A stretch of DNA of 64,000 nucleotides from Octopus vulgaris. Lineage: Eukaryota. This document shows positions 1-61,607 of this stretch, piece after piece. The translations under genes and the position numbers were made by a program. The notes beneath the pieces were generated by a model, which was given only the letters and a program-made list of their open reading frames with translations, was not told the DNA's origin and ran no database searches. The stretch spans positions 31,868,001-31,932,000 of the forward strand of contig OX597840.1 in NCBI GenBank assembly GCA_951406725.2, read 5' to 3'. Every line of letters starts with the position of its first letter. Position 1 is the first letter of the stretch.

Positions 1-151
1 ACCGCCGGCGTGCTTCTCTCACCCGAGGTTTGAGATTCTTCATCACCTGAGATGGGTGAATAGGTAATGGGGAAATCCATTTCGAATTTTCCTTCCAGTT
101 TGTATTCACTGCCTTCCAAAGACATTCTGGCTTTGCAGCCGTTAGTAGAAA

Positions 152-192
<41 letters not shown>

Positions 193-414
193 GATGTGTT
201 TCGTACACGAAGGCACACAATAATTCCCCCACGGGGGGGGGAACTACGTACACAACCTTCGCGCGAAGGCCACTAACCGTCTTATTAAAAGACACAAAAT
301 AACAATATTAACACAGCAACAATAAACTACTAACTTTCAATTCAACAACAATATTTCAGACAAAAAACTCACGTTTCGTTTTTGAGTATCAATGAATAAG
401 TCAAAGTAACGTCC
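1..414 (-). mobile_element. 5' end (5'UTR and ORF1 start) of Tx1/L1-clade LINE, array copy 0, truncated by window edge
   Basis: Near-identical to 5285-5691 and 10564-10964; similarity ends at ...AAGTAACGTCC (414). Confidence 0.93.
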
Positions 415-675
415 TATCGGGTGTTTTTTATTATTACCCACAAGGGGCCAACAAAGAGGGGACAATACAACCTGATGTGGGGTCAGATTCACGTATGAGG
501 TTACAAAAGTATGAGTTTAAAAATTTCAAAAATTCACAAAAATTGCAAAAATTATAAAAATCGAATGAGAAAAAACAGACCGGAAGACACTACAGGTGGA
601 GTGGGGGCGGGTTCAGCTCGGACCCCACGAGCCCCGCCTCACCACTGATACTTTTGGTTTCGTTTTGATCTACAT

Positions 676-3600
676 TTATGTGGTGTCATTCATTCTCAAC
701 TTCCGTGCTACATCCTTCCATCGTTCTTCATACACTCTTTTAGTCAGGCATTTTCTCTCCAGCCCTATCTTCCTTTTCAGGTGGTAGATGAAGTAATTCA
801 TCAACCCAGGGCCGGATATGAACTTGCCTGACCGTATACCTTTCATTCTCGTCTTCCATATCACCTCCTTCGCAATTGCTACCACAACGAGAAAACAAGT
901 CTTACCTTCTTTCGCGAGGAAATCTGGTGGGTCAATTTTTTTAATACACTCAGTCGACAGCTGTACTCTTCGTGTGCTTGACAACAGCTGTTCGGCATAA
1001 ACCCACACCTCAGACACGTCCGAACAATGAACAATAGCGTGCGGGACGGTTTCCCTATCCCGCCCGCATCTTGGACACATCGGACTGTCTTGGCCACCGT
1101 GCCTTGCGAGTTTATCCCGAACAGGTAGAGCTCCTCTGTAGCATTGCCATGCCAGAGACTTCTGGAAGTTGTCCAGAGTCTTCGGCTCGAACGTACGTCG
1201 GAACAGACTAGCCAGCTGATTATCGTCGAGACCCAGGGTTTCCCCCAAGGTGTCTTCACATTCCGCCTCTACCAACCCTCTATAGAAGAATGTGGTGGAA
1301 CCCCCACCGCAGGCGTTGCCCGAGCGACGGAATAGCAGGAGGGCCTTTCGACACTCCGTATACCATGTACCGAGTTTCGATCTACGATTCAACCAGGTTT
1401 CCCATCCACCGAAACTAGTGAACTTGGGAAACATCAGTTTTGCTAACGGAGACCACACCCGTTCACCATCCAGGTAGAGCCACAGATGTCTTAACCTCAG
1501 CGCATGTCTGCGCATCATCAGCCAAGGCATCCCTAGCCCACCCTTTAACGGTTGTTGACAGCAAGTAGAGCGTTTCACAAGTGGTTTCCTGCCCTTCCAC
1601 AGGAAGTAGAAGAGCTGTCTTTCCAACTTGGTCAACCACGAATCAGGGCATGGAACGACGGAAAGGCGGTAGATGATAACCGATGCGATAAACACATTGG
1701 CCACCTCCGCCCTCCCTTTCAAGGATAGCCACCGCCTAGACCAGGTCTTGGCTACTGCAGCCACCTTGCTCGTTACCTCGCCCCAATTCTTCTCTATTTG
1801 GAGGTCTGGACCGAACCAGACCCCTAGCAGTTTAATCGGACCCTCCGTCCAACGTCCCACGACGCTGTCAGGAGGCATCGACTTGCCTCTCCAGGTGCCG
1901 AGTTGCAAGCCGACTGACTTTTCGCGATTAACTTTTGCTCCTGTCACCGTCTCGTAATCCTCTATGGCCTTGCCTACTTTACATAGGTGGTCCATTTCGG
2001 TCACGATGATGGTGATGTCGTCCGCGTACGCTGACACTGATTTTCCATTACCTGGCTGTCTCGGGATGCCGCTCAGTTTTCGCAGTAATGGCTCAAGAGC
2101 CATCACGTACAAAAGCGGGGAGAGCGGACACCCTTGACGAACCGAGCGTTTGATTTTGAACGGCTTCGACAAGAAGCCGTTCACCCGAACTACCGAGTCG
2201 ATGTTGTCGTAAATTTGGATAATCCACCTGAGGAAGCCAAGGCCCAGCCCGAACTGTGCCAGAGCAGACACCAGGTAACGATGGTCGACCCTATCAAAAG
2301 CTTTGGATTGGTCTAAATGGACCAGTGCCCCACCCTTGCCAGAATCACTATTAAACCCCTCTATAGTGTACCGCATTAGATGGAGATTATCCTGAATGGT
2401 TCTGCCCGGAACGGCACATGTCTGTGCCTCCCCGATCAGACCATCCGCGACACGCGCCAATCTTTTCGATAACACTTTGGCCAAAATCTTCAACTCTGTG
2501 TTTAGCAGAGTGATGGGCCTGAAATTATCAATGCACTCCCCCTTGCTCGGGTCCTTTCTGACGAGAGTCACCACTCCCCGGCGCACAGATCTGGGTATCA
2601 ACCCGTTCTGCTGCCAGTTCGCATAGACTTCCGCCAGTAGGTGCCCGAACAAGTCTGGCATATTCTTATATAACTCGTAGGGTAGACCATCCAAACCCGG
2701 CGCCTTGCCCGCGCCGCAGTCCGCCATTGCCTCCACCACCTCCTCAGGCGTGATTGGCCCTTCACAGCCCTCCGCATCTCGCCCCGATAGGCGCGGCAGC
2801 CCGTCGAGTAGGTCCGTAAAGGCCCTCCTCCTATCCAGTCCGCCGCACTCACCGAAAAGCTGAGCGAAGTGCTCCTGAAAGGCCTCACACATCTCCTCGG
2901 GTTCGTCTATCAACTCACCTTGTTGGTTCTTCAAAGATCGAATCGTGGCATCGTTGCCATTCCGGGCTTCCACCACTCGGGCCCATCTCACGGCGTTGAT
3001 TCCTTCACATCCCATATGACGGATTCTAGCCCTGACAATGCAGCCCATGTGTTTGGCCTCGAGGTGCTGGTTTAACACCAGTCTCTTGGACGCCACCTGA
3101 GCCGCAGAGCCAGTTTTCATGGCTTCCTCTAATTCCTTAACTAGAGTAGTTTCCCTTCTAGCCTCTCTAGACACTACTCCTATGCTATATCTAATAGACT
3201 CAAACTTGATGGCTCGTTTGAGGGCGTACCACCATTTGTTATTAATGATGGCACCAGACAGCGCCCTCTGAATTATGGTCCTAATCCGGTCTCTGTACTC
3301 CTTAATCGCCAAAAGGGACGTATTAAGTTTCCAGTAACCGGATCCTCTCTTTCTAACCTTATCTATGTCAAGCTTACAAGTGACCATTTTATGATCACTG
3401 TAGCTGATCGGGTAAAACTGTGGACGCTTAGCTATTTTACTGTCTACCTTTCTAATTAGAATTCTATCTATGTATGACCTGGAAGATCCGTCGCTGTTTG
3501 ACCATGTCCACAATGGAGCGTTCGGAAATTCCAACCTATAAGGATCTGCTAGCTCAAAGCGGCTTAGCAGTTCCAGGAAGCATGTGTTACCTTTTCTATC

Positions 3601-4070
3601 ATTCGAGCCAACACAATCTACATCCGCTTTGCAAATTGTGTTAAAGTCTCCTAGCAAACTATTGAATGCGAAGTACCGAGAAAGTTCTCTAGATCACGAT
3701 AATAATCACTTTGCCCATTATTACTGCAGGGTGCGTAAATTGCAACCAGTCTGATAACTTTACCGTTACTGAACGTCAAATCCATGACGACCAGCCTACC
3801 TTCTGGGTCTGAAAAAATTAACTTTTTCTCAAAAACCCGGTTTCTTTTTAGTAGGACCAACACCCCACTCCCGCCTGCAGGACTGCCAGGAGAGAAAAAA
3901 CTCTCGTAGCCGTCAAACAGTGGGAGTAGATCTCTTGGCCCCTTTAACCGGGTTTCTGTAGCAACAATAACATCCAAATTGCGCGACCTGATATCATTAA
4001 GGAAGCGACCTTGCTTCCCGCTTGATCCCAGGCCGCGCACATTTAAACAACCAACACAAATGTAGTTCAT
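676..4070 (-). CDS. ORF2 (APE endonuclease, reverse transcriptase, C-terminal Cys/His finger), copy 1, split by a 1-bp deletion near 3656
   Basis: ORFs 3651-4073 and 676-3657 together equal the 1132-aa ORF of copy 2; AGCAAACT here versus AGCATAACT in copy 2. Confidence 0.92.
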
Positions 4071-4078
4071 CACTTACC

Positions 4079-5409
4079 TTATATCGGTAGTTTGGCTTTT
4101 TCGGCGGTTTCGCCTTCTTCTTCATTTTTTTTTTCTTTGGCTCGTGGGGGAGTCCGACGTAGGCCCTCGTATAGATATGGAGACATGTCCAGTCTCAGAG
4201 GGCCCACGTCGTGGAAGAACTCGGATTTTATCCTCCTGTAGTCCTTCCGGCCTATTTTATATATGATGAAGTCTTTCATCTTCCTTACACGTTCCACCTT
4301 GGCCATGGCTGCCAACACATTGACAAGTCTGTTGTTAGTAGCCTTAATGGCCATAAATGAAGAAGTAACCTCTTTCCTTTTCTTTAGGTTTTCTTCTTCT
4401 TGAGGGGTGGTTTCAGTTTTCCGTTTTTTTTTGGTAACTTTAGACCACCCCTCCTCTTTTTCGTTTTCTTTTTCCTTTTCTGCAGCTTTTTCCACCTCTT
4501 TGGTTTCCTTTTTTCCTCCGTTTCTTCTTTCTCCGACGGTTCTTCTGTCTGCGGTTTCGGTTGACACTCCGCTCTCACGTGCCCCTTCTTTCCGCAGCCG
4601 AAGCACCTCGGTTTTCTTCCTTCTACAAATACTAGAACTCGCTCCTCCTCATCTAGCCTCAGCACCTCTGGTATTTCTTCCAGAGTCTGGGCCTCTGCTT
4701 GTATAGCCATTGTTATGATCTGGCCCTGCCAAAATCCCTCCTCCTCCACTGTAGCTTGGAGGATGTTGATTTTTTCTTTCAGGCCCAGCATCACTGCCGC
4801 CACCAGGCATGAGGCGTCTGCCTCTGGGGGAATATTTCTCATTACTATCTTTGAAGTCCTTCTTCCTTTGTACAAGGGTAGAAGGACTAGATTTCCCGCT
4901 TTCTGAGGTTCTGTGGATAGCTTCTTAGCTATTTCTTCGGTTCTGAACCTCACTTCTACTGTTCCGAACCGTCTTCCTCTATTTATGTAAGTGATATCTT
5001 TTCTGATTGTCTTCAGGCACTCCTCTATTTTGCATTCTTCCACTTTTTGTATGCTTTTTGTAGTCGTGCTGTATGTCTTGTATATAATTCTTTTCTTTTC
5101 TATCTCTTCCTTTTTTTCCATATCTTTTTTCACTGCAATTTCATTTCCTTCTTTCTTTAGAAGGTCTTCATATTTCTCTAGGTTTTCTATATCTATATCT
5201 TTCTGTTTGCGTCCAACAACTTCCGCAAACTTCTTTGTTGGGGCCTTTTGTTCTGGCGTTACCGCCGATTCTTTTTCCGGTGTCACCGCCGGCGTGCTTC
5301 TCTCACCCGAGGTTTGAGATTCTTCATCACCTGAAATGGGTGAATAGGTAATGGGGAAATCCATTTCGAATTTTCCTTCCAGTTTGTATTCACTGCCTTC
5401 CAAAGACAT
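4079..5409 (-). CDS. ORF1 (gag-like, RRM-like region plus CCHC zinc knuckle), copy 1, frameshift in a T run near 4510
   Basis: Starts MSLEGSEYKLEG; contains CFGCGKKGHVRAEC; T6 versus T7 in copy 2; ends AEKAKLPI* 8 nt before the ORF2 ATG. Confidence 0.85.
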
Positions 5410-5435
5410 TCTGGCTTTGCAGCCGTTAGTAGAAA

Positions 5436-5467
<32 letters not shown>

Positions 5468-5953
5468 GTTTTTGAATGTGTTTCGTACACGAAGGCACAC
5501 AATAATTCCCCCGCGGGGGGGGAACTACGTACACAACCTTCGCGCGAAGGCCACTAACCGTCTTATTGAAAAGACACAAAATAACAATATTAACACAGCA
5601 ACAATAAACTACTAACTTTCAACAACACTATTTCAGACAAAAAACTCACGTTTCGTTTTTGAGAATCAATGAATAAGTCAAAGTAACGTCCTTATCAGTG
5701 TTTTATTTTATTTACCCACAAGGGGCCAACAAAGAGGGGACAATACAACCTGATGTGGGGTCAGATTCACGTATGAGGTTACAAAAGTATGAGTTTAAAA
5801 ATTTCAAAAATTTACAAAAATTGCAAAAATTATAAAAATCGAATGAGAAAAAACAGACCGGAAGACACTACAGGTGGAGTGGGGGCGGGTTCAGCTCGGA
5901 CCCCACGAGCCCCGCCTCACCACTGATACTTTTGGTTTCGTTTTGATCTACAT

Positions 5954-8900
5954 TTATGTGGTGTCATCCATTCTCAACTTCCGTGCTACATCCTTCCATC
6001 GTTCTTCATACACTCTTTTAGTCAGGCATTTTCTCTCCAGCCCTATCTTCCTTTTCAGGTGGTAGATGAAGTAATTCATCAACCCAGGGCCGGATATGAA
6101 CTTGCCTGACCGTATACCTTTCATTCTCGTCTTCCATATCACCTCCTTCGCAATTGCTACCACAACGAGAAAACAAGTCTTACCTTCTTTCGCGAGGAAA
6201 TCTGGTGGGTCAATTTTTTTAATACACTCAGTCGACAGCTGTACTCTTCGTGTGCTTGACAACAGCTGTTCGGCATAAACCCACACCTCAGACACGTCCG
6301 AACAATGAACAATAGCGTGCGGGACGGTTTCCCTATCCCGCCCGCATCTTGGACACATCGGACTGTCTTGGCCACCGTGCCTTGCGAGTTTATCCCGAAC
6401 AGGTAGAGCTCCTCTGTAGCATTGCCATGCCAGAGACTTCTGGAAGTTGTCCAGAGTCTTCGGCTCGAACGTACGTCGGAACAGACTAGCCAGCTGATTA
6501 TCGTCGAGACCCAGGGTTTCCCCCAAGGTGTCTTCACATTCCGCCTCTACCAACCCTCTATAGAAGAATGTGGTGGAACCCCCACCGCAGGCGTTGCCCG
6601 AGCGACGGAATAGCAGGAGGGCCTTTCGACACTCCGTATACCATGTACCGAGTTTCGATCTACGATTCAACCAGGTTTCCCATCCACCGAAACTAGTGAA
6701 CTTGGGAAACATCAGTTTTGCTAACGGAGACCACACCCGTTCACCATCCAGGTAGAGCCACAGATGTCTTAACCTCAGCGCATGTCTGCGCATCATCAGC
6801 CAAGGCATCCCTAGCCCACCCTTTAACGGTTGTTGACAGCAAGTAGAGCGTTTCACAAGTGGTTTCCTGCCCTTCCACAGGAAGTAGAAGAGCTGTCTTT
6901 CCAACTTGGTCAACCACGAATCAGGGCATGGAACGACGGAAAGGCGGTAGATGATAACCGATGCGATAAACACATTGGCCACCTCCGCCCTCCCTTTCAA
7001 GGATAGCCACCGCCTAGACCAGGTCTTGGCTACTGCAGCCACCTTGCTCGTTACCTCGCCCCAATTCTTCTCTATTTGGAGGTCTGGACCGAACCAGACC
7101 CCTAGCAGTTTAATCGGACCCTCCGTCCAACGTCCCACGACGCTGTCGGGAGGCATCGACTTGCCTCTCCAGGTGCCGAGTTGCAAGCCGACTGACTTTT
7201 CGCGATTAACTTTTGCTCCTGTCACCGTCTCGTAATCCTCTATGGCCTTGCCTACTTTACATAGGTGGTCCATTTCGGTCACGATGATGGTGATGTCGTC
7301 CGCGTACGCTGACACTGATTTTCCATTACCTGGCTGTCTCGGGATGCCGCTCAGTTTTCGCAGTAATGGCTCAAGAGCCATCACGTACAAAAGCGGGGAG
7401 AGCGGACACCCTTGACGAACCGAGCGTTTGATTTTGAACGGCTTCGACAAGAAGCCGTTCACCCGAACTACCGAGTCGATGTTGTCGTAAATTTGGATAA
7501 TCCACCTGAGGAAGCCAAGGCCCAGCCCGAACTGTGCCAGAGCAGACACCAGGTAACGATGGTCGACCCTATCAAAAGCTTTGGATTGGTCTAAATGGAC
7601 CAGTGCCCCACCCTTGCCAGAATCACTATTAAACCCCTCTATAGTGTACCGCATTAGATGGAGATTATCCTGAATGGTTCTGCCCGGAACGGCACATGTC
7701 TGTGCCTCCCCGATCAGACCATCCGCGACACGCGCCAATCTTTTCGATAACACTTTGGCCAAAATCTTCAACTCTGTGTTTAGCAGAGTGATGGGCCTGA
7801 AATTATCAATGCACTCCCCCTTGCTCGGGTCCTTTCTGACGAGAGTCACCACTCCCCGGCGCACAGATCTGGGTATCAACCCGTTCTGCTGCCAGTTCGC
7901 ATAGACTTCCGCCAGTAGGTGCCCGAACAAGTCTGGCATATTCTTATATAACTCGTAGGGTAGACCATCCAAACCCGGCGCCTTGCCCGCGCCGCAGTCC
8001 GCCATTGCCTCCACCACCTCCTCAGGCGTGATTGGCCCTTCACAGCCCTCCGCATCTCGCCCCGATAGGCGCGGCAGCCCGTCGAGTAGGTCCGTAAAGG
8101 CCCTCCTCCTATCCAGTCCGCCGCACTCACCGAAAAGCTGAGCGAAGTGCTCCTGAAAGGCCTCACACATCTCCTCGGGTTCGTCTATCAACTCACCTTG
8201 TTGGTTCTTCAAAGATCGAATCGTGGCATCGTTGCCATTCCGGGCTTCCACCACTCGGGCCCATCTCACGGCGTTGATTCCTTCACATCCCATATGACGG
8301 ATTCTAGCCCTGACAATGCAACCCATGTGTTTGGCCTCGAGGTGCTGGTTTAACACCAGTCTCTTGGACGCCACCTGAGCCGCAGAGCCAGTTTTCATGG
8401 CTTCCTCTAATTCCTTAACTAGAGTAGTTTCCCTTCTAGCCTCTCTAGACACTACTCCTATGCTATATCTAATAGACTCAAACTTGATGGCTCGTTTGAG
8501 GGCGTACCACCATTTGTTATTAATGATGGCACCAGACAGCGCCCTCTGAATTATGGTCCTAATCCGGTCTCTGTACTCCTTAATCGCCAAAAGGGACGTA
8601 TTAAGTTTCCAGTAACCGGATCCTCTCTTTCTAACCTTATCTATGTCAAGCTTACAAGTGACCATTTTATGATCACTGTAGCTGATCGGGTAAAACTGTG
8701 GACGCTTAGCTATTTTACTGTCTACCTTTCTAATTAGAATTCTATCTATGTATGACCTGGAAGATCCGTCGCTGTTTGACCATGTCCACAATGGAGCGTT
8801 CGGAAATTCCAACCTATAAGGATCTGCTAGCTCAAAGCGGCTTAGCAGTTCCAGGAAGCATGTGTTACCTTTTCTATCATTCGAGCCAACACAATCTACA

Positions 8901-9349
8901 TCCGCTTTGCAAATTGTGTTAAAGTCTCCTAGCATAACTATTGAATGCGAAGTACCGAGAAAGTTCTCTAGATCACGATAATAATCACTTTGCCCATTAT
9001 TACTGCAGGGTGCGTAAATTGCAACCAGTCTGATAACTTTACCGTTACTGAACGTCAAATCCATGACGACCAGCCTACCTTCTGGGTCTGAAAAAATTAA
9101 CTTTTTCTCAAAAACCCGGTTTCTTTTTAGTAGGACCAACACCCCACTCCCGCCTGCAGGACTGCCAGGAGAGAAAAAACTCTCGTAGCCGTCAAACAGT
9201 GGGAGTAGATCTCTTGGCCCCTTTAACCGGGTTTCTGTAGCAACAATAACATCCAAATTGCGCGACCTGATATCATTAAGGAAGCGACCTTGCTTCCCGC
9301 TTGATCCCAGGCCGCGCACATTTAAACAACCAACAGAAATGTAGTTCAT
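5954..9349 (-). CDS. Intact ORF2 polyprotein (about 1131 aa): APE endonuclease, RT, zf-RVT-like finger
   Basis: APE motifs LNVRGL, ETRL, IYAP, GDFN, YIDRIL, SDHK; L1/Tx1-type GYWKLN; RT motifs PGLDGL, FRPITLLN, LDQSKAFDRV, RQGCPLSP, YADD; C-terminal CPRCGRDRETVPHAIVHC. Confidence 0.97.
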   Translation of the reverse strand: MNYISVGCLNVRGLGSSGKQGRFLNDIRSRNLDVIVATETRLKGPRDLLPLFDGYESFFSPGSPAGGSGVLVLLKRNRVFEKKLIFSDPEGRLVVMDLTFSNGKVIRLVAIYAPCSNNGQSDYYRDLENFLGTSHSIVMLGDFNTICKADVDCVGSNDRKGNTCFLELLSRFELADPYRLEFPNAPLWTWSNSDGSSRSYIDRILIRKVDSKIAKRPQFYPISYSDHKMVTCKLDIDKVRKRGSGYWKLNTSLLAIKEYRDRIRTIIQRALSGAIINNKWWYALKRAIKFESIRYSIGVVSREARRETTLVKELEEAMKTGSAAQVASKRLVLNQHLEAKHMGCIVRARIRHMGCEGINAVRWARVVEARNGNDATIRSLKNQQGELIDEPEEMCEAFQEHFAQLFGECGGLDRRRAFTDLLDGLPRLSGRDAEGCEGPITPEEVVEAMADCGAGKAPGLDGLPYELYKNMPDLFGHLLAEVYANWQQNGLIPRSVRRGVVTLVRKDPSKGECIDNFRPITLLNTELKILAKVLSKRLARVADGLIGEAQTCAVPGRTIQDNLHLMRYTIEGFNSDSGKGGALVHLDQSKAFDRVDHRYLVSALAQFGLGLGFLRWIIQIYDNIDSVVRVNGFLSKPFKIKRSVRQGCPLSPLLYVMALEPLLRKLSGIPRQPGNGKSVSAYADDITIIVTEMDHLCKVGKAIEDYETVTGAKVNREKSVGLQLGTWRGKSMPPDSVVGRWTEGPIKLLGVWFGPDLQIEKNWGEVTSKVAAVAKTWSRRWLSLKGRAEVANVFIASVIIYRLSVVPCPDSWLTKLERQLFYFLWKGRKPLVKRSTCCQQPLKGGLGMPWLMMRRHALRLRHLWLYLDGERVWSPLAKLMFPKFTSFGGWETWLNRRSKLGTWYTECRKALLLFRRSGNACGGGSTTFFYRGLVEAECEDTLGETLGLDDNQLASLFRRTFEPKTLDNFQKSLAWQCYRGALPVRDKLARHGGQDSPMCPRCGRDRETVPHAIVHCSDVSEVWVYAEQLLSSTRRVQLSTECIKKIDPPDFLAKEGKTCFLVVVAIAKEVIWKTRMKGIRSGKFISGPGLMNYFIYHLKRKIGLERKCLTKRVYEERWKDVARKLRMDDTT

Positions 9350-9357
9350 CACTTACC

Positions 9358-10688
9358 TTATATCGGTAGTTTGGCTTTTTCGGCGGTTTCGCCTTCTTCT
9401 TCATTTTTTTTTCTTTGGCTCGTGGGGGAGTCCGACGTAGGCCCTCGTATAGATATGGAGACATGTCCAGTCTCAGAGGGCCCACGTCGTGGAAGAACTC
9501 GGATTTTATCCTCCTGTAGTCCTTCCGGCCTATTTTATATATGATGAAGTCTTTCATCTTCCTTACACGTTCCACCTTGGCCATGGCTGCCAACACATTG
9601 ACAAGTCTGTTGTTAGTAGCCTTAATGGCCATAAATGAAGAAGTAACCTCTTTCCTTTTCTTTAGGTTTTCTTCTTCTTGAGGGGTGGTTTCAGTTTTCC
9701 GTTTTTTTTTGGTAACTTTAGACCACCCCTCCTCTTTTTCGTTTTCTTTTTCCTTTTCTGCAGCTTTTTCCACCTCTTTGGTTTCCTTTTTTTCCTCCGT
9801 TTCTTCTTTCTCCGACGGTTCTTCTGTCTGCGGTTTCGGTTGACACTCCGCTCTCACGTGCCCCTTCTTTCCGCAGCCGAAGCACCTCGGTTTTCTTCCT
9901 TCTACAAATACTAGAACTCGCTCCTCCTCATCTAGCCTCAGCACCTCTGGTATTTCTTCCAGAGTCTGGGCCTCTGCTTGTATAGCCATTGTTATGATCT
10001 GGCCCTGCCAAAATCCCTCCTCCTCCACTGTAGCTTGGAGGATGTTGATTTTTTCTTTCAGGCCCAGCATCACTGCCGCCACCAGGCATGAGGCGTCTGC
10101 CTCTGGGGGAATATTTCTCATTACTATCTTTGAAGTCCTTCTTCCTTTGTACAAGGGTAGAAGGACTAGATTTCCCGCTTTCTGAGGTTCTGTGGATAGC
10201 TTCTTAGCTATTTCTTCTGTTCTGAACCTCACTTCTACTGTTCCGAACCGTCTTCCTCTATTGATGTAAGTGATATCTTTTCTGATTGTCTTCAGGCACT
10301 CCTCTATTTTGCATTCTTCCACTTTTTGTATGCTTTTTGTAGTCGTGCTGTATGTCTTGTATATAATTCTTTTCTTTTCTATCTCTTCCTTTTTTTCCAT
10401 ATCTTTTTTCACTGCAATTTCATTTCCTTCTTTCTTTAGAAGGTCTTCATATTTCTCTAGGTTTTCTATATCTATATCTTTCTGTTTGCGTCCAACAACT
10501 TCCGCAAACTTCTTTGTTGGGGCCTTTTGTTCTGGCGTTACCGCCGATTCTTTTTCCGGTGTCACCGCCGGCGTGCTTCTCTCACCCGAGGTTTGAGATT
10601 CTTCATCACCTGAAATGGGTGAATAGGTAATGGGGAAATCCATTTCGAATTTTCCTTCCAGTTTGTATTCACTGCCTTCCAAAGACAT
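9358..10688 (-). CDS. ORF1 (about 443 aa when the two copies are reconciled), CCHC knuckle; 1-bp-short T run near 9408 shifts the C-terminus
   Basis: ATG at 10688 just downstream of the internal A tract; CFGCGKKGHVRAEC; copy 1 shows the likely true C-terminus. Confidence 0.85.
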
Positions 10689-11139
10689 TCTGGCTTTGCA
10701 GCCGTTAGTAGAAAATATTTTTTTTTTTTTTTTTTTTTTTGTTTTTGAATGTGTTTCGTACACGAAGGCACACAATAATTCCCCCACGGGGGGGGAACTA
10801 CGTACACAACCTTCGCGCGAAGGCCACTAACCGTCTTATTGAAAAGACACAAAATAACAATATTAACACAGCAACAATAAACTACTAACTTTCAACAACA
10901 CTATTTCAGACAAAAAACTCACGTTTCGTTTTTGAGAATCAATGAATAAGTCAAAGTAACGTCCTGTCGGGTTCACGACTGCATAATGTTGGGTTCTGCA
11001 TTTTTTTTTTTCAAGAGGATTCCACGTTTAAATAAGAAATGAAAATCATTTAAGTTAATCATGCAATTTTGGGAATATTCCATTTTTTACTGATATATAC
11101 TACAATAACAAAGAAATTATTTAAGATTTTAGATTTATG

Positions 11140-11460
11140 CATAAGTATTCTTATGGTTCCAAAACGCATGGTTCTCAGTTCAGTCCCACTGTGTGGTAAC
11201 TTGGCATGTGTCTTCTACTATAGCCTGAGACCAACCAAAGCCTTGTCAGTGGATTTTGTAGACAGAAACTGAAAGAAATCAATCGTATATATATCTATGT
11301 ATGTATGTAAGTCTGTGTGTGTGTCTTTGTGTTTCTCCCTCATCACTGCTTCACAACTGGTGTTCGTTTATTTACATCCCCATAACATACTGGTTTCACA
11401 AGAAGAAACTGATAGAATAAGTACCAGGCTTATCAAAATTTAAAAAAGCTCTACGTTGTC
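11140..11460 (+). mobile_element. Decayed SINE family B copy
   Basis: Matches the body of 24187-24590 (GTTCAGTCCCACTG...GAAACTGAAAGAA...GATAGAATAAGTAC). Confidence 0.75.
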
Positions 11461-11543: not shown

Positions 11544-14233
11544 TTTAGTATTGGCAACATGAATGACAATGGCCAGAGACTACTTGAATTTTGCACATAC
11601 CATAACCTGTGCATCACCAACACATTCTTTCCCAACAAGACATCCCACAAGGCATCTTGGAGACATCCAAGATCTCACCACTGGCATCAGTTGGATCTCA
11701 TCATTACACGAAGATCCTTTCTGAATTCTGTTCAACTGACCCGTAGCGCGGATTGTGACACAGATCATTCACTAATAAGAAGGGTGAGGATTCTGCCTAA
11801 AAAGTCCATCACTCCAAGAAAATGAGCCAACCACGCATTAACACTGCCAGAACCTCGGACCCTACACTGCGACAATGTTTTGCTGTTTCTATCAAGGTTG
11901 CCCTCAGTAGCTGCCCAACCTCCTCTGCTGAAAGTAGGTGGAATTATATCAGGGAAGCTTTGTATACCACATCAATAGATACTTTCGGAATGAGAGAAAG
12001 GTAAAACCCAGATTTTGTTCAGTGCTGGGCTCTCAGAGCTGGAAACAGTTATCGAAGCAAAGCGTGCAGCTCTGATGCAATACAAGAGTGTTTCTTCTAC
12101 AAAGTCACTCGAAGAACTCAGAAAGGCAAGAAATAAAACCCAACTCACTGCCAGACGCTGTGCAAATGGGTATTGACAGGAAATCTGTCAGAGTATCCAG
12201 TCAGCTGCTGACAGTGGTGACACCCGTGGGATGTATGCCGGTTTGAAGAAGGCCCTCGGTCCATCCGCAACCACCTCAGCCCCTCTGAAATCAACTACTG
12301 GAGATCTCATCAAGGACCAAAGCAAGCAAAAGGATACATGGATGGAGTACTACCAGGATCCCTACACACGAGAGGTAGCTGAGGCTGCAATCGAGGGTGT
12401 CAAGATCTTGCCAGTCATGTGTGAACTTGACAGTCTGCCATCTATAGCAGAGCTCACCAAATCTATTGACTCCCTAGCAAGTAACAAGGCTCCGGGGAAA
12501 GACGGCATCCCCTTAGAGATCATCAAAACCGGCAAAAATACCATCCTGCTTCGGCACATTCATGAGCTTCTGTGTCAGTGCTGGTAAGAGGGTACAGTCC
12601 CTCAGAATATGCGGGATGCTAACATCATTACGCTTTACAAAAATAAAAGTGACCGTGATGATTGTAACAATTACCGTGGAATATCTCTTCTAAGCACAGT
12701 TGGAAAGGCCTCTGCTCGCATTATCCTGTCCAGGCTGCAACTAATTGCTTCTCGAATTTATCCAGAATCGCAGTGTGGCTTTAGAAGCAGATCAACTATT
12801 GACATGATATTCTCCATACGCCAACTTCAGAAGTCCAGAGAGCAGAACATGCCATTATATATGGCCTTCATTGATCTGACAAAGGGCTTTGACTTGGTAA
12901 GTAGAAAAGGCCTCTTCATCCTGCTCCAGAAAATCGGATGCTGAGGATCATCAAATCATTCCATGCTAATATGCAAGGCACCATACAGCACAATGGTTCA
13001 ACATCAGCCGCCTTCCAAATAAAAAATGGGGTAGAGCAAGGTTGTGTCCTTGCTCCTACATTATTTGGCATCTTCTTCTCGCTGCTGCTGTCACATGCCT
13101 TTGAGACATCAGATGATGGAGTGTTTCTGCACAGTAGAAGTGATGGGAAACTGTTTAATCTCTCGCGTCTGCGTGCCAAGACCAAAATCTCAGAAGCGTC
13201 CTGATCAAGGAGATGCTATTTGCTGATGATGCCGCTCTGGTATCACACACAGAAGAAGCCCTACGAAGGCTCAGCAACTGTTTTGAGCAAGCATTTGGCA
13301 ACTTTGGCTTAGTTATCAGCCTCAAGAATACCAACATCATGGGTCAGGCTACATCGGACATCCCAAACATACATATTGGAGACCACAGAGTATAGGAGGT
13401 GGAGAAGTTTACCTATCTTGGCTCTACCGTCACCTACAACCTATCCCTTGATGCTGAGCTCAATATACGCATTGGCAAGGCAGCTGCTGTGATGGCCCAA
13501 CTCACCAAACGCGCATGGGACAACAATAAGCTGACCAAGACCACAAAAATGAAGATTTACCAGGCATGTGTACTTAGCACTCTACTGTATGACTTTGACG
13601 CCATACACACGCCATACGACGCCATACGTCGCCTAAATATCTTTCACTTGCGCTGTCTCCGGAAAATCCATCGCATCAAATGGCAGAATCATGTCCCTAA
13701 CAAAGATGTCCTCAAGCAAGCAGGAATACCAAGCATGTTTGCACTCTTCACACAAAGACGTATGAGATCGCTTGGACATGTAAGCCGTATGGAAGATGGC
13801 AGAATCCCCAAGGACATACTCAACGGAGAGCTTGCTAGGGGCACTAGGTCTGTGGGAAGACCGTTCTTACGATACAAGGATGTTTGCAAAAGGGACATGA
13901 ATGCCTGCAACATCAATATTACCAACTGGGAAGCAGTTGCCAGCAACCGTGGAGATTGGCGATGTATCGTAAAAGAGGGAACACAAAGGAGTGACATAGT
14001 GAGAAAGGAGAAATGGAAAGACAAGAAAAGACGTCAACAAAAAACTATGACATTAAGACCAGTCAGGCAAAGTCTTCGCTACATTTACGGCACCTGCCAG
14101 AGGGAGTGTTTGTCCCGGATAGGACTACACAGCCACAGCAAGAGATGTATTAGGACATGAAATGTAAAAGCCGGACTAGATTATTTTATGCGCAACTCCA
14201 TTGTCTCCTGAGACAAAAAGGATGCCAACAACA
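11544..14233 (+). mobile_element. 5'-truncated, decayed RTE-clade (BovB-like) LINE with (CAA)n tail
   Basis: Fragments include APE end (SWRHPRSHHWHQLDLII, DCDTDH), RT (KAPGKDGIP, NYRGISLLS, FIDLTKGFD, QGCVLAP, LFADD) and C-terminal CQRECLSRIGLHSH; multiple stops and frameshifts; tail GATGCCAACAACAA. Confidence 0.93.
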
Positions 14234-14513
14234 ATATATATGGATTTCGTAGACAGGAACTGTAACAAATAAATCGTATATATATGTATGTATATATGTA
14301 AGTGTATGTGTGTGTCTTTGTCTCTGTGTTTCGCCCTCATCACTGCTTCACAACTGCTGTTCACTTATTTACATCCACATAACTTACTGGTTTCACAAGA
14401 ACAAACTAATAGAGTAAGTACTAGGCTTATCAACATAAAAAAGCACTAGGCTGTGTCTCATATTTTTGTTTGCCCACTCAGTTGTATCTATCAATTTATC
14501 TTTGTGTGTGTGT

Positions 14514-14514
14514 A

Positions 14515-14573
<59 letters not shown>

Positions 14574-15886
14574 CACCCTAATGGGAGCCATAAATCCCAA
14601 ATTTTAGTAATTTCTTTTATGATCCAAAACTTGGTCAAAAGTACTGAATGGATCTTTATGAAATTTGGAAATTATATTCTATGCATAAGGGCCATAACGC
14701 CCATGACAATTCATATATTTTTGCTGTTGATGAAATTTTAACCATAGACATTAGACACAAATGAAGTAATATCTATAAAATTTCATCTTACAAAGTTAGA
14801 AAGACCCCTCCATGGGGACTTAACATCTACAATTTTGTCATTTTATCTAAGCAAAAATGAATACAGTTGTGCTCTTGGAAGCTGTAGGGTTACCCGAGCA
14901 TAAAAGATGAGCATTATTTGTAATTCAATGGTACAACAGTGTAACAGTTTGCTTTGACATACACTTACATTGTGATTTCTGCAATGTGCTGCATAAATTG
15001 TCAAGTAAATGAGAGGCATCTTTGCCTCCACTGATTCAGTTGCAAAGTGTAGAGTAAAATTTATTTGATTGCAGACCTCCTTTCAGTCTTTTTATTATCA
15101 CTCGGTCACACATAGTCCCCAGATGGTAACATTGATTTCAAGGCCTTCCCAGATGAGTGACTGGTTATTCGAAGACATTTATAGATTTTAAATTTATTCT
15201 GTCCAGTTACGTATCAGTATAGTGGTCATTTGCAAACTACAGAGGTGACACTTTCATTTCTCCTTAGCTCTCACGTCAAACAGTTGTTAATGTTGATTTC
15301 AGTTGGGTCACGCCCTTCCAATTGCTATAGATTCGAATGCATCTTACGGCTGTGCATGTCACCTGGATGGTGAGGAATCCTACATTAGGAGTGGTAACGA
15401 CTAGGGTAGGGTAACTGACTGCTTATTGTGATCATTCGTCTTTTGGTTTCCTGTAGCTTTGCTCTCTTTTACAAACCCAGTGAACATATATTTCCTATTT
15501 CAAAGAAATTCAAACAATAGATATAAGACCCAAGTTAAAAAGATTTTCAACAATTCAACTTCTCTGGTTGACATTAAGATGCCTACCCCCAACAGGGGCC
15601 TTAACTCTCACATTTTAGAGCTCCATGACCTTCATTTTTCAGGAACAAAATCTTTTTAACAAGTTAAATAAGACTGGAATTTTGGAATATGCGCATAAAA
15701 ATCAGGATTATGGGATACATGTGGCACGATTACAATTTTTTAGGGTGTGTAAAGATTGAAATAACCCTCATCTGCAATTTTGATGAAATTCGAAACATAG
15801 ATATTCCAGTTCATCACAGAAGATATAACAGAAAAGTCTAATTCTCCAATTGAATGTAATCGGGCAACGCCGGGTATCTCTGCTAG
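14514..15886 (+). mobile_element. Probable non-autonomous Helitron
   Basis: 3' end CGGGCAACGCCGGG...CTGCTAG|T as in the other Helitrons here; 5' TC(TA)n start is less certain. Confidence 0.55.
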
Positions 15887-16258
15887 TTATATATAAATAT
15901 AAATAAGTAAAAGATATGCAATAAATATAAATATGTATATAAAAGTAAAAATGTACATATATATATATATATATATTCTTTCTTTTCTTTCTTTTATTCT
16001 TTTACTTGTTTCGACCCGAACACTTCTTTAAAGTAATTCTATATATTTCGCAAGAAAGAACAATAATATTATGTATATACATGCCACCATCGGGGGGACA
16101 AACACAAACACACACACAGTTTCCGTCTACCAAATTCACTCACAAGGCTTTGGTTGGCCTGAGGCTCTAGTAGAAGACCAAGGCGTCACGCAATGGGGCT
16201 GAACCCAGAACCATGTGGTTGGTAAGCAGGCTACTTACCACACAGCCACTCATGCATA

Positions 16259-16328
<70 letters not shown>

Positions 16329-16590
16329 TGTGTGTCTGTGTGTAGTTTGACAAGTGTCAATGAACGAAACTCTCGCCCCTCGAGTCACTCTGTTGCTTCT
16401 GCTAAATATTGATAAACACATATATGATGAGCTTTTTCAGATTCCGTCAACCACATCTACTCACAAGGGTTTAGTCGACTCAGGGCTATAGTAGAAACAC
16501 CCGCTCAAAGTGCCACGCAGCTGGACTGAACCCGGAACGGCTTACAACACAGTCACGCCTGCTTCTATTCACATATATACATGATATATA

Positions 16591-16820
16591 TTTCTTTTAC
16601 TACCCACAAGGGGCTAAACATAGAGGGGACAAACAAGGACAGACAAACGGATTAAGTCGATTACATCGACCCAGTGCGAAACTGGTACTTTATTTATCGA
16701 CCCCGAGAGGATGAAAGGCAAAGTCGACCTCGGCGGAATTTGAACTCAGAACGTAGCGGCAGACGAAATACTGCTAAGCATTTCGCCCGGCGTGCTAACG
16801 CTTCTGCCAGCTCGCCGCCT
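16591..16820 (-). mobile_element. tRNA-derived SINE family A (Tx1-like tail)
   Basis: A-box-like TGGCAGAAGCGTTAG, B-box GAGTTCAAATTCC, central GCCTTTCATCCT..GGGGTCGATAAA domain, tail matching Tx1 3' end. Confidence 0.9.
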
Positions 16821-17516
16821 CTTGCATATAAATCTATGTGCGTATATAGACACAGTTATACATACACATACCTAGTCATAGATGGCTACACACACTAACA
16901 CACACGTACACATACACATGCAAGTAGTCACACGAGTGTACACACAACCACACACATACGCACGCACACACACACACACACATACACACTCGCACGCACG
17001 CACATAATCTCCTTTCCTCTCACCCTTATTCTTCTAAGCAAACACACATCTACACACACATAGAAAGGCATGCATGCACGCAGACATAAGATTAATTCGC
17101 GGCCAAATTCAGGGCAGACGTTGAAGAGAAAGGACAAGCTATTGAAAAGGTCGCGAAAAATAGCGACGAACGGACATTCACGAAGAAATAAAACCTTGAT
17201 TGTTTAACCAGCACGTTAAACAAACGATCGATTACGAAGTTGGTCAGATGTGTAACCATATCGTTATTGGCATAATGACCCTCCCAAGAAGCAACAAGAT
17301 GTGTGTGTGTATACATGTGTGAGTGTGTGTGCGTATGTGTATATATGTATGTGTGTGTGTGTGTATGTATGTATGTGTGTGTGTGTGGCAAAAACAGATC
17401 GATAGAATAAGTACTAGGCTTACAAAGAATAATCCCTAGAGTCGATTTGCTCGACTAAAGGCAGTGCTCCAGCATGGCCAAAGTCAAATGACTGTAACAA
17501 ATAAAAGAATAAAAGA

Positions 17517-17563
<47 letters not shown>

Positions 17564-17564
<1 letters not shown>

Positions 17565-17957
17565 TAGCAGTGTCGCCCGGCGTTGCTCGGGTTTGTAAGG
17601 GAAATAACTATATAAGCATTTTTAGAGATGTAAAGTATAATAGCCATCTCAATATGGCTAACCACAAAGGGGGGGGGTGTTACTGTAGCTTTTTACATTC
17701 TGAGATTTAATAATACATTTTAGAGAGTTACTTCCCTTATATAAACCAAGCGAAAATGCATTAAAAATGCGGAAAAAATTATGGTAATTTTTTTTTAATC
17801 GTAAACTCATCGTAGACGTGCGCTAATACCCAGAAGGGCTCGATATGAATCACAACTATAAGATACCCGCTTTTGGTTACACTGCACCGCAAAATGAGGG
17901 AGTAGTTAGGAATCTAAATCGTAGGAGACAGACACACAACTTCACTTTTATATATAA

Positions 17958-17960
<3 letters not shown>
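17564..17960 (-). mobile_element. Non-autonomous Helitron
   Basis: 5' TCTTTATATATAAAAG; 3' hairpin CCCGAGCAACGCCGGG then CTAG; repeated at 21637, 47131 and 48781. Confidence 0.85.
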
Positions 17961-18002
<42 letters not shown>

Positions 18003-18016
18003 CACATATATATACA

Positions 18017-18074
<58 letters not shown>

Positions 18075-18083
18075 TATATATAC

Positions 18084-18134
<51 letters not shown>

Positions 18135-18201
18135 GAGGGAATATCATTCATAACTTACAGGGAAAAATTCAATTTCGAAATACTAAATCAAATTTCACAA
18201 A

Positions 18202-18241
<40 letters not shown>

Positions 18242-18418
18242 TAGAAAAAAACACCTTTTATCAATTCAAAATGAACAATTAAATTACACCATCTAGAAAA
18301 TTACATATAATAGAAATATTAAATATAAAATAACAATAATATACCGATGATTAAGTAATGTGCAAAATAATAAATAAATCGTATATATCATGAATTGATA
18401 AAAGGTGGTTTTTTTCTA

Positions 18419-19731: not shown

Positions 19732-20192
19732 ATGCATGTATGTATGTATGTATGTATGTATGTATGTATGTATGTATGTATGTATGTATGTATGTATGTA
19801 TGTATGTATGTATGTATGTGTGTATGTATATACTTACATATATATGTATATACATATGCATATATGGGTACAGGACGTCACAGAAGGTAAACAACAGGAA
19901 ATACGAAATACGAAAATATGGAATACGAACTTTTTTGCGAACAGCGAAAGAAACAATATTATCGATAATGCCCGAAATTGCGTTTGACTCCTCTTGCTGA
20001 TAACTGATGAAGAATTTGTGACCTTGTGTGTTTTCTGTTCGCCTGTGCATTTAGTATGTGTTCGTTTGTTTATTTACAATACGTTTATTTTTAATTATAT
20101 ATATATAGATATGTCATATTTTCAGTTTGTTCTCTTTTTATTTAATCCTGAAGATATTATTTATGTAACGCACGCACTCATTAATCTTTTAC

Positions 20193-20236
<44 letters not shown>

Positions 20237-20449
20237 GTGTGTGTGTGTGTGTGAGTGTGCAGGCGTGTGTGTGTGTGTAGTTCAAATTTACAGAAAACAA
20301 ACGACGAAGACAGGTGAAAGAACAACAAGCAGAGTTTGAAGGTTTTTTAGTTATAGAAATCGACCCCAGGACTTACTCTTTGGAACCCTAGCACTTATTC
20401 TATCGGTTTCTTTTTCCAAAACGCTAAGTTACGGGACGTGTATATATAT

Positions 20450-20532
<83 letters not shown>

Positions 20533-21003
20533 CGTAGGAGTGACTGTGTGACAAGAAGTTTGCTGCCTGGTCACTAGGTCAAATAGATTTGGACGATGGA
20601 AACTGAAAAAAGCCCGTCGTATATACGTGTTTGTGGGCCGGAGGGGGCTAGCTTCGTGCTTGTCCCAGACAACTGCTTGTTGACTTCCTTTCCATCCCCG
20701 CAACTTAGAAGTTCGACGAAATTAACCGATAGAATATGTCGAATGACTGAGACAAGTAAATGTTTTTTTAGATATATCGTAGTAATATCTAATGTAGTTG
20801 TGGTTTACGACCAGTCAGGACGTTACCATTGGTTTCACACTTTTTATACTCTTAGCAATATAGACGTCTCCCACTGCTAAGAACGTAAAAGGCGCGAAAG
20901 CAATGGTGACTCCCTGACAGGCCATACCAGCCACATAGTTTCGGGTTCATTCACACTGCGTGGCACCTTAGAACCTAGGGTTGGATTCAAAATTCTACCA
21001 GGA

Positions 21004-21045
21004 CACCTGATGAAGGCTGGAGAGTAAATCAGCCGAAATTTTGTG
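21004..21045 (+). ncRNA. Decayed type I hammerhead-ribozyme motif
   Basis: cac-CTGATGA-a-ggctg..cagcc-GAAA-tt-TT-gtg; stems I and II pair, stem III mutated. Confidence 0.55.
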
Positions 21046-21636
21046 GTAGCAACAAACAAGATGAGGACAAATATCCGTCCAATGTAAAAAATGTAAATAT
21101 TGTACAGAATTCCTCATCTCTAAAATATAGAACAATTTATGATTGTTTCAAAAATTCCATGTTGACTTAATCTTGCATTGTGTTTTTAAACGACTCCACA
21201 ATTAATGATGTAGTCATATCCGTTGTACAGATACCCCGTTCATAGAAATGATCCCTCGCAACTCTACAAAAAATAATATGCTGAAGTGTTTGTCTACCGC
21301 TTAAATATAGGACATTAATCAATGTTTATAGTGGACGGCACAGCGGTCACGTTTATAAACATGATTGAAGATAAGTCAAAATGAATTTGTAGAAATAATT
21401 GTAAACTATGAAACAAAAATAATAACGCAAACTCCACTTTTCAGTGCTTATTACTTCTGTAACCTCTCAGAGGAAACATGACTCCTCCTTCACTCCTCTC
21501 CACCCTTCATTTATGGTTTGAGAATAATTCTATAATTGTTGTAAACTGGAATGGAACTTACTCTCTTTCTGCTCACATCCATTCACCATTTAATGCTACT
21601 TGCTTTGCATCTTTTAGAGAGATAGATTAGATATAA

Positions 21637-22035
21637 CTAGCAGTATCGCCCGGCGTTGCTCGGGTTTGTAAGGGAAATAACTATATAAGCATTTTTAGAG
21701 AGTTATAGCCAAAAAATAGCCAAAAAAATGCATTAAAAATGGAAAAAAATGATGGTAAATTTTTTTTTAAATCGTTGACTCATCGTAGACATTTTTAGAG
21801 AGTTACTTCCCTTATATAATAGCAAAACAAATGCATTAAAATGGAAAAAAATGATGGTAAATTTTTTTTTAAATCGTAGACTCATCGTAGACGCGCGCTA
21901 ATACCCAGAAGGGCTCGATATGAATCACGACTATAAGATACCTGGTTTTGGTTAAACTGCACCGCAAAATGTGGGAGTAGTTAGGAATCTAAATCGTAGG
22001 AGACAGACACACAACCTCTCTTTTATATATAAAGA
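21637..22035 (-). mobile_element. Non-autonomous Helitron
   Basis: Same termini and body as 17564-17960. Confidence 0.85.
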
Positions 22036-22089
22036 TAAACTCAAAGAGCAACTAGAAAGTGAAAGTAGTATCTAACTTAGGATGTCTCA

Positions 22090-22500
22090 TAGATAGTGGT
22101 GGCAATGGTGTTGGAGGTGGTAGATGTGGTTATCATGGCAGTGGTGGTGGTGGTGTAGTGGTGACAGTGGATGTGTATGATGGCAGCAATTATAGTGTTG
22201 GTGTTTTTGTAGAGGTGGTGGTGGTGGCGGCGGCAGTGGATGATAATGATAATGATGATGATAGTAGTAGTAGCATTGATTATGTTAGGATATCTCATGG
22301 ATGGTAGTGTTGAAGACATTGCAGAGTGTAGTGGTGGTGAAATTGGTGATTTTGAATATGATGCTGGTATTGATCTTGGGGTTGTGGTTGCAGAAGATGG
22401 TTGTGGTGGTGGCATTGGAGGTTGTAGTAATGGTTGTAGTGGTGGTTGTGAAGATGATTCTGATATTGATAGTCTTTGCATTGAGGTGGTGGCAGAGTCA
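22090..22500. repeat. Degenerate (GGT/GAT)n low-complexity tract
   Basis: Trinucleotide-derived sequence. Confidence 0.8.
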
Positions 22501-24986: not shown

Positions 24987-25080
<94 letters not shown>

Positions 25081-33232: not shown

Positions 33233-33234
<2 letters not shown>

Positions 33235-33446
33235 CTGGCAGAATCGTTAGCACGTCGGGTGAAATGTGTGGTGTTTCGTCTGCCGCTACGTTCTGAGTTC
33301 AAATTCCGCCGAGGTCGACTTTGCCTTTCATCCTTTCGGGGTCGATATATAAAGTACCAGTTTCGCACTGGGGTCGTTGTAATCGACTTAATCCCTTTGT
33401 CTGTCCTTGTTTGTCCCTCTATGTTTAGCCCTTGTGGGCAATAAAG

Positions 33447-33450
<4 letters not shown>
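33233..33450 (+). mobile_element. SINE family A
   Basis: Matches 16591-16820. Confidence 0.88.
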
Positions 33451-33518
<68 letters not shown>

Positions 33519-56330: not shown

Positions 56331-56561
56331 TATTTCTTTACTGCCCACAAGGGGCTAAACATAGAGGGGACAAACAAGGACAGACAAAGGAATTAAGTCG
56401 ATTACATCGACTCCAGTGGGAAACTGGTACTTTATTTATCGACACCGAAAGGATGAAAGGCAAAGTCGACCTCGGCGGAATTTGAACTCAGAACGTAACG
56501 ACAGACGAAATACGGCTATGCATTTCGCCCGGCGTGCTAACGTTTCTGCCAGCTCGCCGCC
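56331..56561 (-). mobile_element. SINE family A
   Basis: Matches 16591-16820. Confidence 0.9.
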
Positions 56562-61374: not shown

Positions 61375-61607
61375 TATTTCTTTACTATCCACAAGGGGCT
61401 AAACACAGAGGGGACAAACAAGGACAGACAAACGGATTAAGTCGATTATATCGACCCCAGTGCATAACTGGTACTTAATTTATCGACCCCGAAAGGATGA
61501 AAGGCAAAGTTGACCTCGGCGGAATTTGAACTCAGAACGTAGCGGCAGACGAAATATGGCTACGCATTTCGCCCGACGTGCTAACGTTTCTGCCAGCTCG
61601 CCGCCTT
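61375..61607 (-). mobile_element. SINE family A with 15-bp target-site duplication
   Basis: AACCCACGTTATACC (61360-61374) and AACCCACGTAATACC (61608-61622). Confidence 0.92.

What the first reader, a model, noticed from the sequence alone, without database searches (positions are those of the whole stretch)
424..470. Young Tx1/L1-clade LINE shares its 3' terminus with a tRNA-derived SINE: candidate LINE-SINE partner pair
Seen: the LINE 3' end (sense) reads TTGTATTGTCCCCTCTTTGTT-GGCCCCTTGTGGGTAATAATAAAAA, also at 5701-5748. The SINE A tail reads TTGT-TTGTCCCCTCTATGTTTAGCCCCTTGTGGGTAGTAAAAGAAA (16591-16636; also 33408-33450, 56331-56376, 61375-61420). About 40 nt align with few differences, and similarity stops exactly at the A-rich end of both. 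One SINE copy has a 15-bp TSD. Established: SINEs borrow the 3' recognition tail of 'stringent' LINEs (CR1, L2, RTE), while mammalian L1 is 'relaxed'. Inference: this Tx1-type element recognises a specific 3' structure (GCCC-(C)TTGT-GGG(T/C) mini-hairpin), and it or a close relative mobilises this SINE family. I do not know whether the pair is already described.
Basis: partly seen in the sequence, partly recalled or inferred. Interest (0 to 1): 0.8.

Follow-up and report, generated by a model that had tools for sequence, protein, structure and literature searches.

The report
Octopus SINE carries Tx1 lineage tail
A very common short repeat in this octopus-like genome ends in the same 45-60 bases as a whole group of L1/Tx1-type jumping genes and their cut-down passengers, so it likely borrows that group's copying enzyme through a shared RNA tail, although the young element flagged here is likely only a relative of the main helper.

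Summary
Confirmed and widened. The 46-nt block is the true 3' end of a young L1/Tx1-type LINE: it ends dispersed copies with their own target-site duplications, so it is not an array artefact. It matches the SINE tail at 40/46 (best shuffle score 32 against 55). The tail is a property of the lineage: ORF2 families only 52-68% identical keep it, and so do ORF1-only (HAL-like) elements. The best match to the SINE (54/58) is an old ORF1-only element, not the window's LINE. No other LINE clade sampled has it (0 of 30 CR1/RTE-like loci; 0 of 32 distant L1/Tx1 relatives). SINE and LINE duplications are of similar length (medians 14 and 17). SINE copies are about 6% diverged and the window's family about 1%, so an older relative likely made most copies. 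The hairpin is plausible but weakly supported. Mobilisation was not tested. Tail-sharing pairs are well known, but my searches found L1-clade ones in print only for plants and algae; the crocodilian Tx1-SINEU link rests on a shared target, without a shared tail. The scan already found this partnership on other DNA of this genome.

The parts
424..470 (-). Shared 3' tail of LINE copy A: pyrimidine-rich core, small predicted stem-loop, A-rich end, no poly(A)
424..5700 (-). LINE copy A, 5.28 kb, 99.4% identical to copy B; ORF1 and ORF2 each interrupted by a frameshift
5701..5748 (-). Shared 3' tail of LINE copy B
5954..9349 (-). ORF2 of copy B, 1131 aa: AP endonuclease, reverse transcriptase, zf-RVT
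9276..10688 (-). ORF1 of copy B, 470 aa, no Pfam hit, CCHC knuckle motif read by eye
5701..10972 (-). LINE copy B, first unit of the head-to-tail array; its 5' end abuts a host sequence shared with other arrays
1..423 (-). 5' part of LINE copy C; the array runs beyond the window to an assembly gap
16589..16819 (-). SINE copy (231 nt) inside a larger multi-copy repeat; tail at 16589-16650
33233..33451 (+). SINE copy between (TA)n tracts
56331..56561 (-). SINE copy
61375..61605 (-). SINE copy with a 15-bp target-site duplication

Best explanation
The SINE, several ORF1-only elements and a lineage of octopod L1/Tx1-type LINEs share one 45-60 nt 3' tail, which the LINE ORF2 protein likely recognises in place of a poly(A) tail, so this lineage likely copies the SINE, with an older family than the one in the window likely doing most of it. 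Shown: the shared terminal position, conservation across diverged families, similar duplication lengths, absence from the other clades sampled, and the age gap. Inferred: ORF2p binds the pyrimidine core and a 4-5 bp stem-loop, nicks the target and primes reverse transcription at the A-rich end; the last 3-5 bases of each RNA pair with the nicked target, because each family's duplications begin with its own characteristic bases. The SINE tail is closest to an old ORF1-only subgroup and was likely taken from it or from its parent LINE.
For: 11 of 41 matches stop exactly at the tail, on 8 contigs. Dispersed copies have unique flanks and 16-21 bp duplications. Of 47 tail matches inspected, 23 follow an ORF2 end, 17 follow ORF1 only and 7 follow no ORF hit. 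Among 8 ORF2-bearing families the 20-nt core is 77% and the 45-nt tail 64% identical, against 44-46% just upstream. The tail-bearing ORF2 rows form one group with an Argonauta protein, SH-aLRT 99, quick tree. Duplications: SINE 23 of 54, 9-20 bp, median 14, 0-1 in swaps; LINE and ORF1-only 55 of 124 against 2-6 in swaps, 39 kept, median 17. Clade-blind search: 166 matches, 48 inspected; the only ORF2-linked ones are Tx1-type. No tail in 30 of 30 top RT loci of other clades (scores 15-28), nor in 32 of 32 distant L1/Tx1 relatives. One older family (L172) has the SINE's age, 7.2% against 6.1%, and its upstream tail and last bases.
Against: No mobilisation or binding test. No ORF2-bearing family has both the SINE's upstream tail and its exact stem-loop (0 matches). 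SINE duplications start GGTA or TATA in 15 of 23, while LINE ones start mostly TCT, GAT, AAT or ATT, so the targets are not the same. RNAalifold finds no consensus structure; single tails fold no better than shuffles; changes on both sides of pairs are not above the shuffles (45/500). A young (ATT)n-flanked family of the same lineage keeps the tail only in split form, score 21-24 in 30 of 30 loci. Dong/R4, Hero, R2, L2 and Penelope 3' ends were not sampled directly.
Confidence: 0.8

Rival explanations
1. The young family in the window is itself the main mobiliser of the SINE.
For: It has an intact ORF2, the same stem-loop as the SINE and 40/46 matches, and leaves duplications of similar length.
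Against: Its copies are 0.9% from their majority sequence, the SINE copies 6.1%, with the nearest SINE neighbours at least 4.4% apart. Older relatives match the SINE over 57-59 nt. Its duplications start differently. The 54 SINE copies are a small sample.
Confidence: 0.12
2. The SINE took the tail from this lineage once, but recognition is relaxed: the tail is kept as a transcription-end or RNA-stability signal, and any LINE that accepts an A-rich end copies the SINE.
For: The tail holds an AATAAA-like word. Structure support is weak. Target starts differ between SINE and LINEs.
Against: The pyrimidine core is kept in a SINE that is presumably made by Pol III and would not need a Pol II end signal; 39,164 copies keep a 34-mer exactly. 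Every mobile passenger found (ORF1-only elements, SINE, 5'-truncated copies) ends at the same place.
Confidence: 0.12
3. The direction is reversed or accidental: the LINE picked up a SINE end by read-through or template switch, or the block is a target remnant of this array.
For: SINE tails outnumber LINE tails by far: 39,164 against 243 for the two motifs searched.
Against: The block is in families 52-68% apart in ORF2, with family-specific stems, and so is older than the SINE burst. It lies inside the duplications of dispersed copies.
Confidence: 0.04

Closest known systems
Stringent L1-clade pairs: maize/sorghum ZmSINE2 and ZmSINE3 with LINE1-1_ZM; Chlamydomonas SINEX-3_CR with L1-1_CR (Ohshima 2012, PMC3472496, part 1 of 3 read; Ohshima 2013, PMC3747384, passages and Table 1 read)
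   Same: An L1-group LINE lineage keeps about 45 terminal bases while the rest diverges, with a hairpin of variable stem, and SINEs share them.
   Different: This case is in an animal, has no poly(A), includes ORF1-only passengers, and the hairpin is smaller and less well supported. Table 1 of the 2013 review lists no animal L1 or Tx1 pair and no octopus SINE.
Crocodilian Tx1-Mar LINEs and SINEU (Kojima 2015, PMC4494074, passages read)
   Same: Tx1-type LINE proposed as SINE mobiliser; preference for a site in another repeat; tandem insertions separated by a duplication.
   Different: There the link rests on shared targets and ages, and no LINE shares the SINEU-1 3' end. Here the tail is shared, the head is tRNA-like, and the targets differ.
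HAL1, HeT-A and Ag-Sponge ORF1-only non-autonomous LINEs (as described in Kojima 2018, PMC5786205, passages read)
   Same: 1.3-1.9 kb elements with ORF1 and the LINE 3' end but no ORF2.
   Different: Here they come from a Tx1-type lineage, are many diverged families (ORF1 28-45% identical to the window's), and one subgroup is the closest match to a SINE tail.
Mollusc SINE-LINE pairs with CR1, CR1-Zenon, L2 and Nimb (PMC4758252, PMC11481361, passages read); Octopus OR2 CORE-SINE (named in PMC4758252 and PMC5804259; original paper not seen)
   Same: tRNA-headed mollusc SINE with a LINE-derived tail; tandem SINE arrays are also reported in bivalves.
   Different: The partner clade is L1/Tx1-type. 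Whether this SINE is OR1, OR2 or another named family could not be checked.

Membership tests
L1/Tx1 group of non-LTR retrotransposons | ORF2 with AP endonuclease, RT and C-terminal zinc motif, closer to L1 than to R2 or RTE | tested here: met
   Pfam PF03372, PF00078, PF13966; human L1 ORF2p E 2.5e-71 over residues 3-867, R2 1e-24; RTE rows fall outside
Tx1 clade (as against L1 clade) | RT phylogeny groups with reference Tx1 elements | tested here: inconclusive
   No reference Tx1 was in the tree; the only Tx1-named hit is a coral protein at 39%; quick tree only
Tx1 clade (as against L1 clade) | Target preference, often for another repeat or a microsatellite | tested here: met
   Full-length arrays end in one host sequence on several contigs; a sister family is followed by (ATT)n in 30 of 30 loci; truncated copies are also dispersed
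Stringent SINE-LINE pair | Shared sequence at the 3' terminus of both | tested here: met
Stringent SINE-LINE pair | Conserved stem-loop with compensatory changes | tested here: inconclusive
   10 of 16 tail types have a stem of 4 bp or more against 2.9 expected; 79% paired, 2/500 shuffles; no consensus fold; z near 0
Stringent SINE-LINE pair | Concurrent activity and matching insertion signature | tested here: inconclusive
   Duplication lengths overlap but first bases differ; age matches family L172, not the window's family
Stringent SINE-LINE pair | Tail needed for mobilisation by the LINE protein | not testable with these tools
   needs a retrotransposition assay
tRNA-derived SINE | Short, dispersed, high-copy, non-coding, with duplications | tested here: met
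   231 nt; 39,164 exact tail matches; duplications
tRNA-derived SINE | [quoted passage not shown] | tested here: inconclusive
   Box-like motifs by eye (consensus recalled); head ends pair, z -2.5; no ARAGORN or Rfam hit
CORE-SINE / OR2 | CORE central domain; identity to the OR2 consensus | not testable with these tools
   No reference sequence on hand; SINEBase supplements could not be read
HAL1-like ORF1-only elements | ORF1 and LINE 3' end, no ORF2, own duplications | tested here: met

The most novel reading that the evidence does not exclude
An animal Tx1-type lineage has swapped poly(A) recognition for a portable core-plus-stem-loop tail that serves three tiers of elements: LINE, ORF1-only passenger and SINE. 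The SINE took its tail from an ORF1-only passenger. The last few bases of each RNA choose the landing site, so read-through into a neighbour reprograms the target and drives the head-to-tail stacks seen for LINEs, passengers and SINEs alike.
Probability: 0.3. Interest if true: 0.72.

Novelty: new variant of a known kind. Interest (0 to 1): 0.5.

Why it matters
It names the likely engine of one of the most abundant repeats in an octopus-like genome. It also gives an animal test case for Ohshima's proposal that the L1 group began with stringent 3' recognition and later relaxed. Young intact ORF2 copies and a dozen natural tail variants make both the recognition rule and the role of the RNA's last bases in target choice directly testable.

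Tried and rejected
Poly(A) at 155-191 or 5439-5473 as the LINE end: rejected; the same tract lies in the 5' UTR of the first array unit (10718-10746), and terminal copies stop at the tail. A single ORF2 family with the full SINE-type tail: 0 matches. A recurrent LINE or ORF1-only junction in the SINE head: 3 matches, of which 1 is the ORF1-only copy already known and 2 are SINEs; one motif only, so other families were not tested. RNAalifold on 28 tails: no structure. Rfam and ARAGORN: nothing. Sequencing runs: no RNA holder listed, which says nothing about expression. Cluster look-up of the nearest outside proteins gave no names. The careful tree did not finish; the quick tree was used. Literature searches found no paper describing this pair. 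The look-up of earlier notes by sequence returned nothing.

Full report
Setting. The window is G000:C27:31868001-31932000 in a 2.8-Gb genome. The closest named relative of the LINE protein is from Argonauta hians, 64% in the RT region, so I call the genome octopus-like. Bases 1-10972 hold a head-to-tail array, on the minus strand, of a 5.28-kb element; the two whole units are 99.4% identical, and the array runs left to an assembly gap. Copy B has an intact 470-aa ORF1 and a 1131-aa ORF2 with endonuclease, RT and zf-RVT domains. Its best solved relative is human L1 ORF2p (E 2.5e-71), far ahead of R2. Membership of the Tx1 clade proper was not settled, because no reference Tx1 was in my quick tree.

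Observation. The LINE and SINE tails match at 40 of 46 positions; the score of 55 compares with a maximum of 32 in 2000 shuffles.

Is it the LINE's own end? A search with 190-720 scored 40 of 957 candidates. Of the 41 matches, 26 span array junctions and 11 stop exactly at the tail, on 8 contigs. Dispersed and 5'-truncated copies end in the tail and carry unique 16-21 bp duplications outside it. The block is therefore part of the element, without poly(A). The long T tracts in the window belong to the 5' UTR.

How widely is it shared? A LINE-type 19-mer has 243 matches. Of 47 inspected, 23 follow an ORF2 end, 17 follow ORF1 only and 7 follow no ORF hit. The ORF1-only elements are 1.3-1.9 kb long, have their own duplications, and form 1.78-kb arrays or mixed arrays with the LINE. 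ORF2 families only 52-68% identical to the window's keep the tail. Across 8 such families the 20-nt core is 77% identical and the 45-nt tail 64%, against 44-46% just upstream. The tail-bearing ORF2 rows form one group with the Argonauta protein (SH-aLRT 99, quick tree). Contigs of four other coded organisms carry the LINE end. In one of them depth over the tail alone is about 20,000-25,000, with SINE-like loose ends.

Which element is closest to the SINE? Not the window's LINE. An old ORF1-only element matches at 54/58 and related ones at 53/59 and 50/58; ORF2 families L172 and L245 share the upstream part of the tail but have other stems. Relatives of the best match align to it at 70-86% identity and extend the likeness about 10 bases further. 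No copy joins the LINE-type core, the SINE's upstream bases and its stem exactly.

Other clades. A clade-blind pattern (the SINE's 26-nt core behind non-SINE bases) gave 166 matches; I inspected 48. Two are 3' UTRs of a Tx1-type family with an intact ORF2. Two have UTRs like the ORF1-only elements (no ORF2 match; ORF1 not tested). The other 44 are, by eye, deleted SINEs or lone tail fragments. The 30 best RT loci of a Pfam search (24 CR1-like and 6 RTE-like, labels from recalled motifs) score 15-28 against the tail. The RTE in the window scores 20, and 32 distant L1/Tx1-like elements from metagenome contigs score like shuffles. Dong/R4, Hero, R2, L2 and Penelope ends were not sampled directly.

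Insertion marks and age. The SINE's 34-mer has 39,164 exact matches. Of 54 independent full-length copies, 23 have 9-20 bp duplications (median 14; 0-1 in swaps). LINE and ORF1-only ends have them in 55 of 124 flanks (2-6 in swaps). After dropping copies directly behind another tail and those whose inner flank had fewer than two matches, 39 remain, median 17, some lengthened by array junctions. First bases differ by family: GGTA or TATA for the SINE (15 of 23), TCT for L172, GAT or ATT for the window's family, and (ATT)n for a young sister family. This fits pairing of the RNA's last bases with the target, but an endonuclease preference would look the same. SINE copies are 6.1% from their majority sequence (5.0% without CpG), with nearest neighbours at least 4.4% apart. 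The window's family is 0.9% from its majority and L172 7.2%.

Structure. At the same place, 10 of 16 tail types have a stem of 4 bp or more, made of different sequences, against 2.9 expected (Fisher p 0.001). The families are related, the position was chosen after looking, and one row was cut short. On the 28-row alignment the named stem is 79% paired (2/500 shuffles), but changes on both sides are not above chance (45/500). RNAalifold gives no structure, and single tails have z near 0. The hairpin is plausible, not shown.

Stacks. Of 135 SINE tails, 56 are followed directly by the rest of another SINE, and in several cases one duplication flanks the whole multimer. This suggests that self-insertion followed by read-through makes multimeric RNAs (inference). 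One ORF1-only copy sits at the same head site; a search for more found none. Full-length copies of the window's family pile up in a short stretch of a multi-copy host sequence.

Comparison. Ohshima found 3 SINEs with L1 tails among 58 pairs, in maize/sorghum and Chlamydomonas (PMC3472496, part 1 of 3; Table 1 of PMC3747384). Kojima tied SINEU to Tx1-Mar by target and age and found no LINE sharing the SINEU-1 end (PMC4494074, passages). Bivalve partners are CR1, CR1-Zenon, L2 and Nimb (PMC11481361, passages). An Octopus vulgaris annotation lists 13 recently active L1-Tx1 families and names no partner in the passages seen (PMC13282606); passages of PMC12988792 name none either. Seven searches found no description of this pair; Repbase and Dfam were not searchable. 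Eight earlier notes of this scan report the same partnership or SINE targeting elsewhere in this genome.

Verdict. The shared tail is real, and mobilisation by this lineage is likely (0.8). The window's family as main helper is unlikely (0.12). New variant of a known kind; interest 0.5.

Noticed in passing
window 10972-11100; L030, L354, L361, L362, L363, L365: Full-length arrays on several contigs sit within a short stretch of one multi-copy host sequence, and the LINE's 5' end is built from short pieces of that host sequence. This suggests that full-length copies are transcribed from outside.
   Followed up: partly
window 14200-18300; L032-L060: A multi-kilobase repeat that holds the 16591 SINE recurs at 92-99% identity on many contigs, sometimes in 3.03-kb tandems and often near LINE arrays. 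What it is was not determined.
   Followed up: partly
L406-L435: A second young family of the lineage (ORF2 59% identical, many open frames of 1145 aa) is followed by (ATT)n, forms 5.87-kb arrays, and has the tail split by about 12 extra bases.
   Followed up: partly
L141-L170, L243: SINE multimers with a 184-nt period; junctions at two fixed sites in the head; one duplication around the whole multimer in several cases.
   Followed up: partly
window 11559-14230 (+): Decayed RTE-type LINE with an unrelated 3' end, flanked by a split copy of the second SINE family.
   Followed up: partly
window about 630-660 (-); L126, L133, L204: A second conserved G-rich motif just after the last stop codon in LINE and ORF1-only 3' UTRs; a similar word lies in the SINE body.
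   Followed up: no
L028 and L030, 200-700 bases after the tail: A short element with terminal inverted repeats, Mariner-like by recalled motif, lies beside the host site.
   Followed up: no
P0004-P0080: The nearest outside relatives of this ORF2 (50-54% in RT) are unnamed ENA contig proteins in clusters of hundreds, closer than the named animal Tx1 hits; host unknown.
   Followed up: partly
window 11154-11400 and many other places: A second, longer SINE family with a different 3' end holds an internal word resembling the tail core; its end does not match the tail (score 18).
   Followed up: partly
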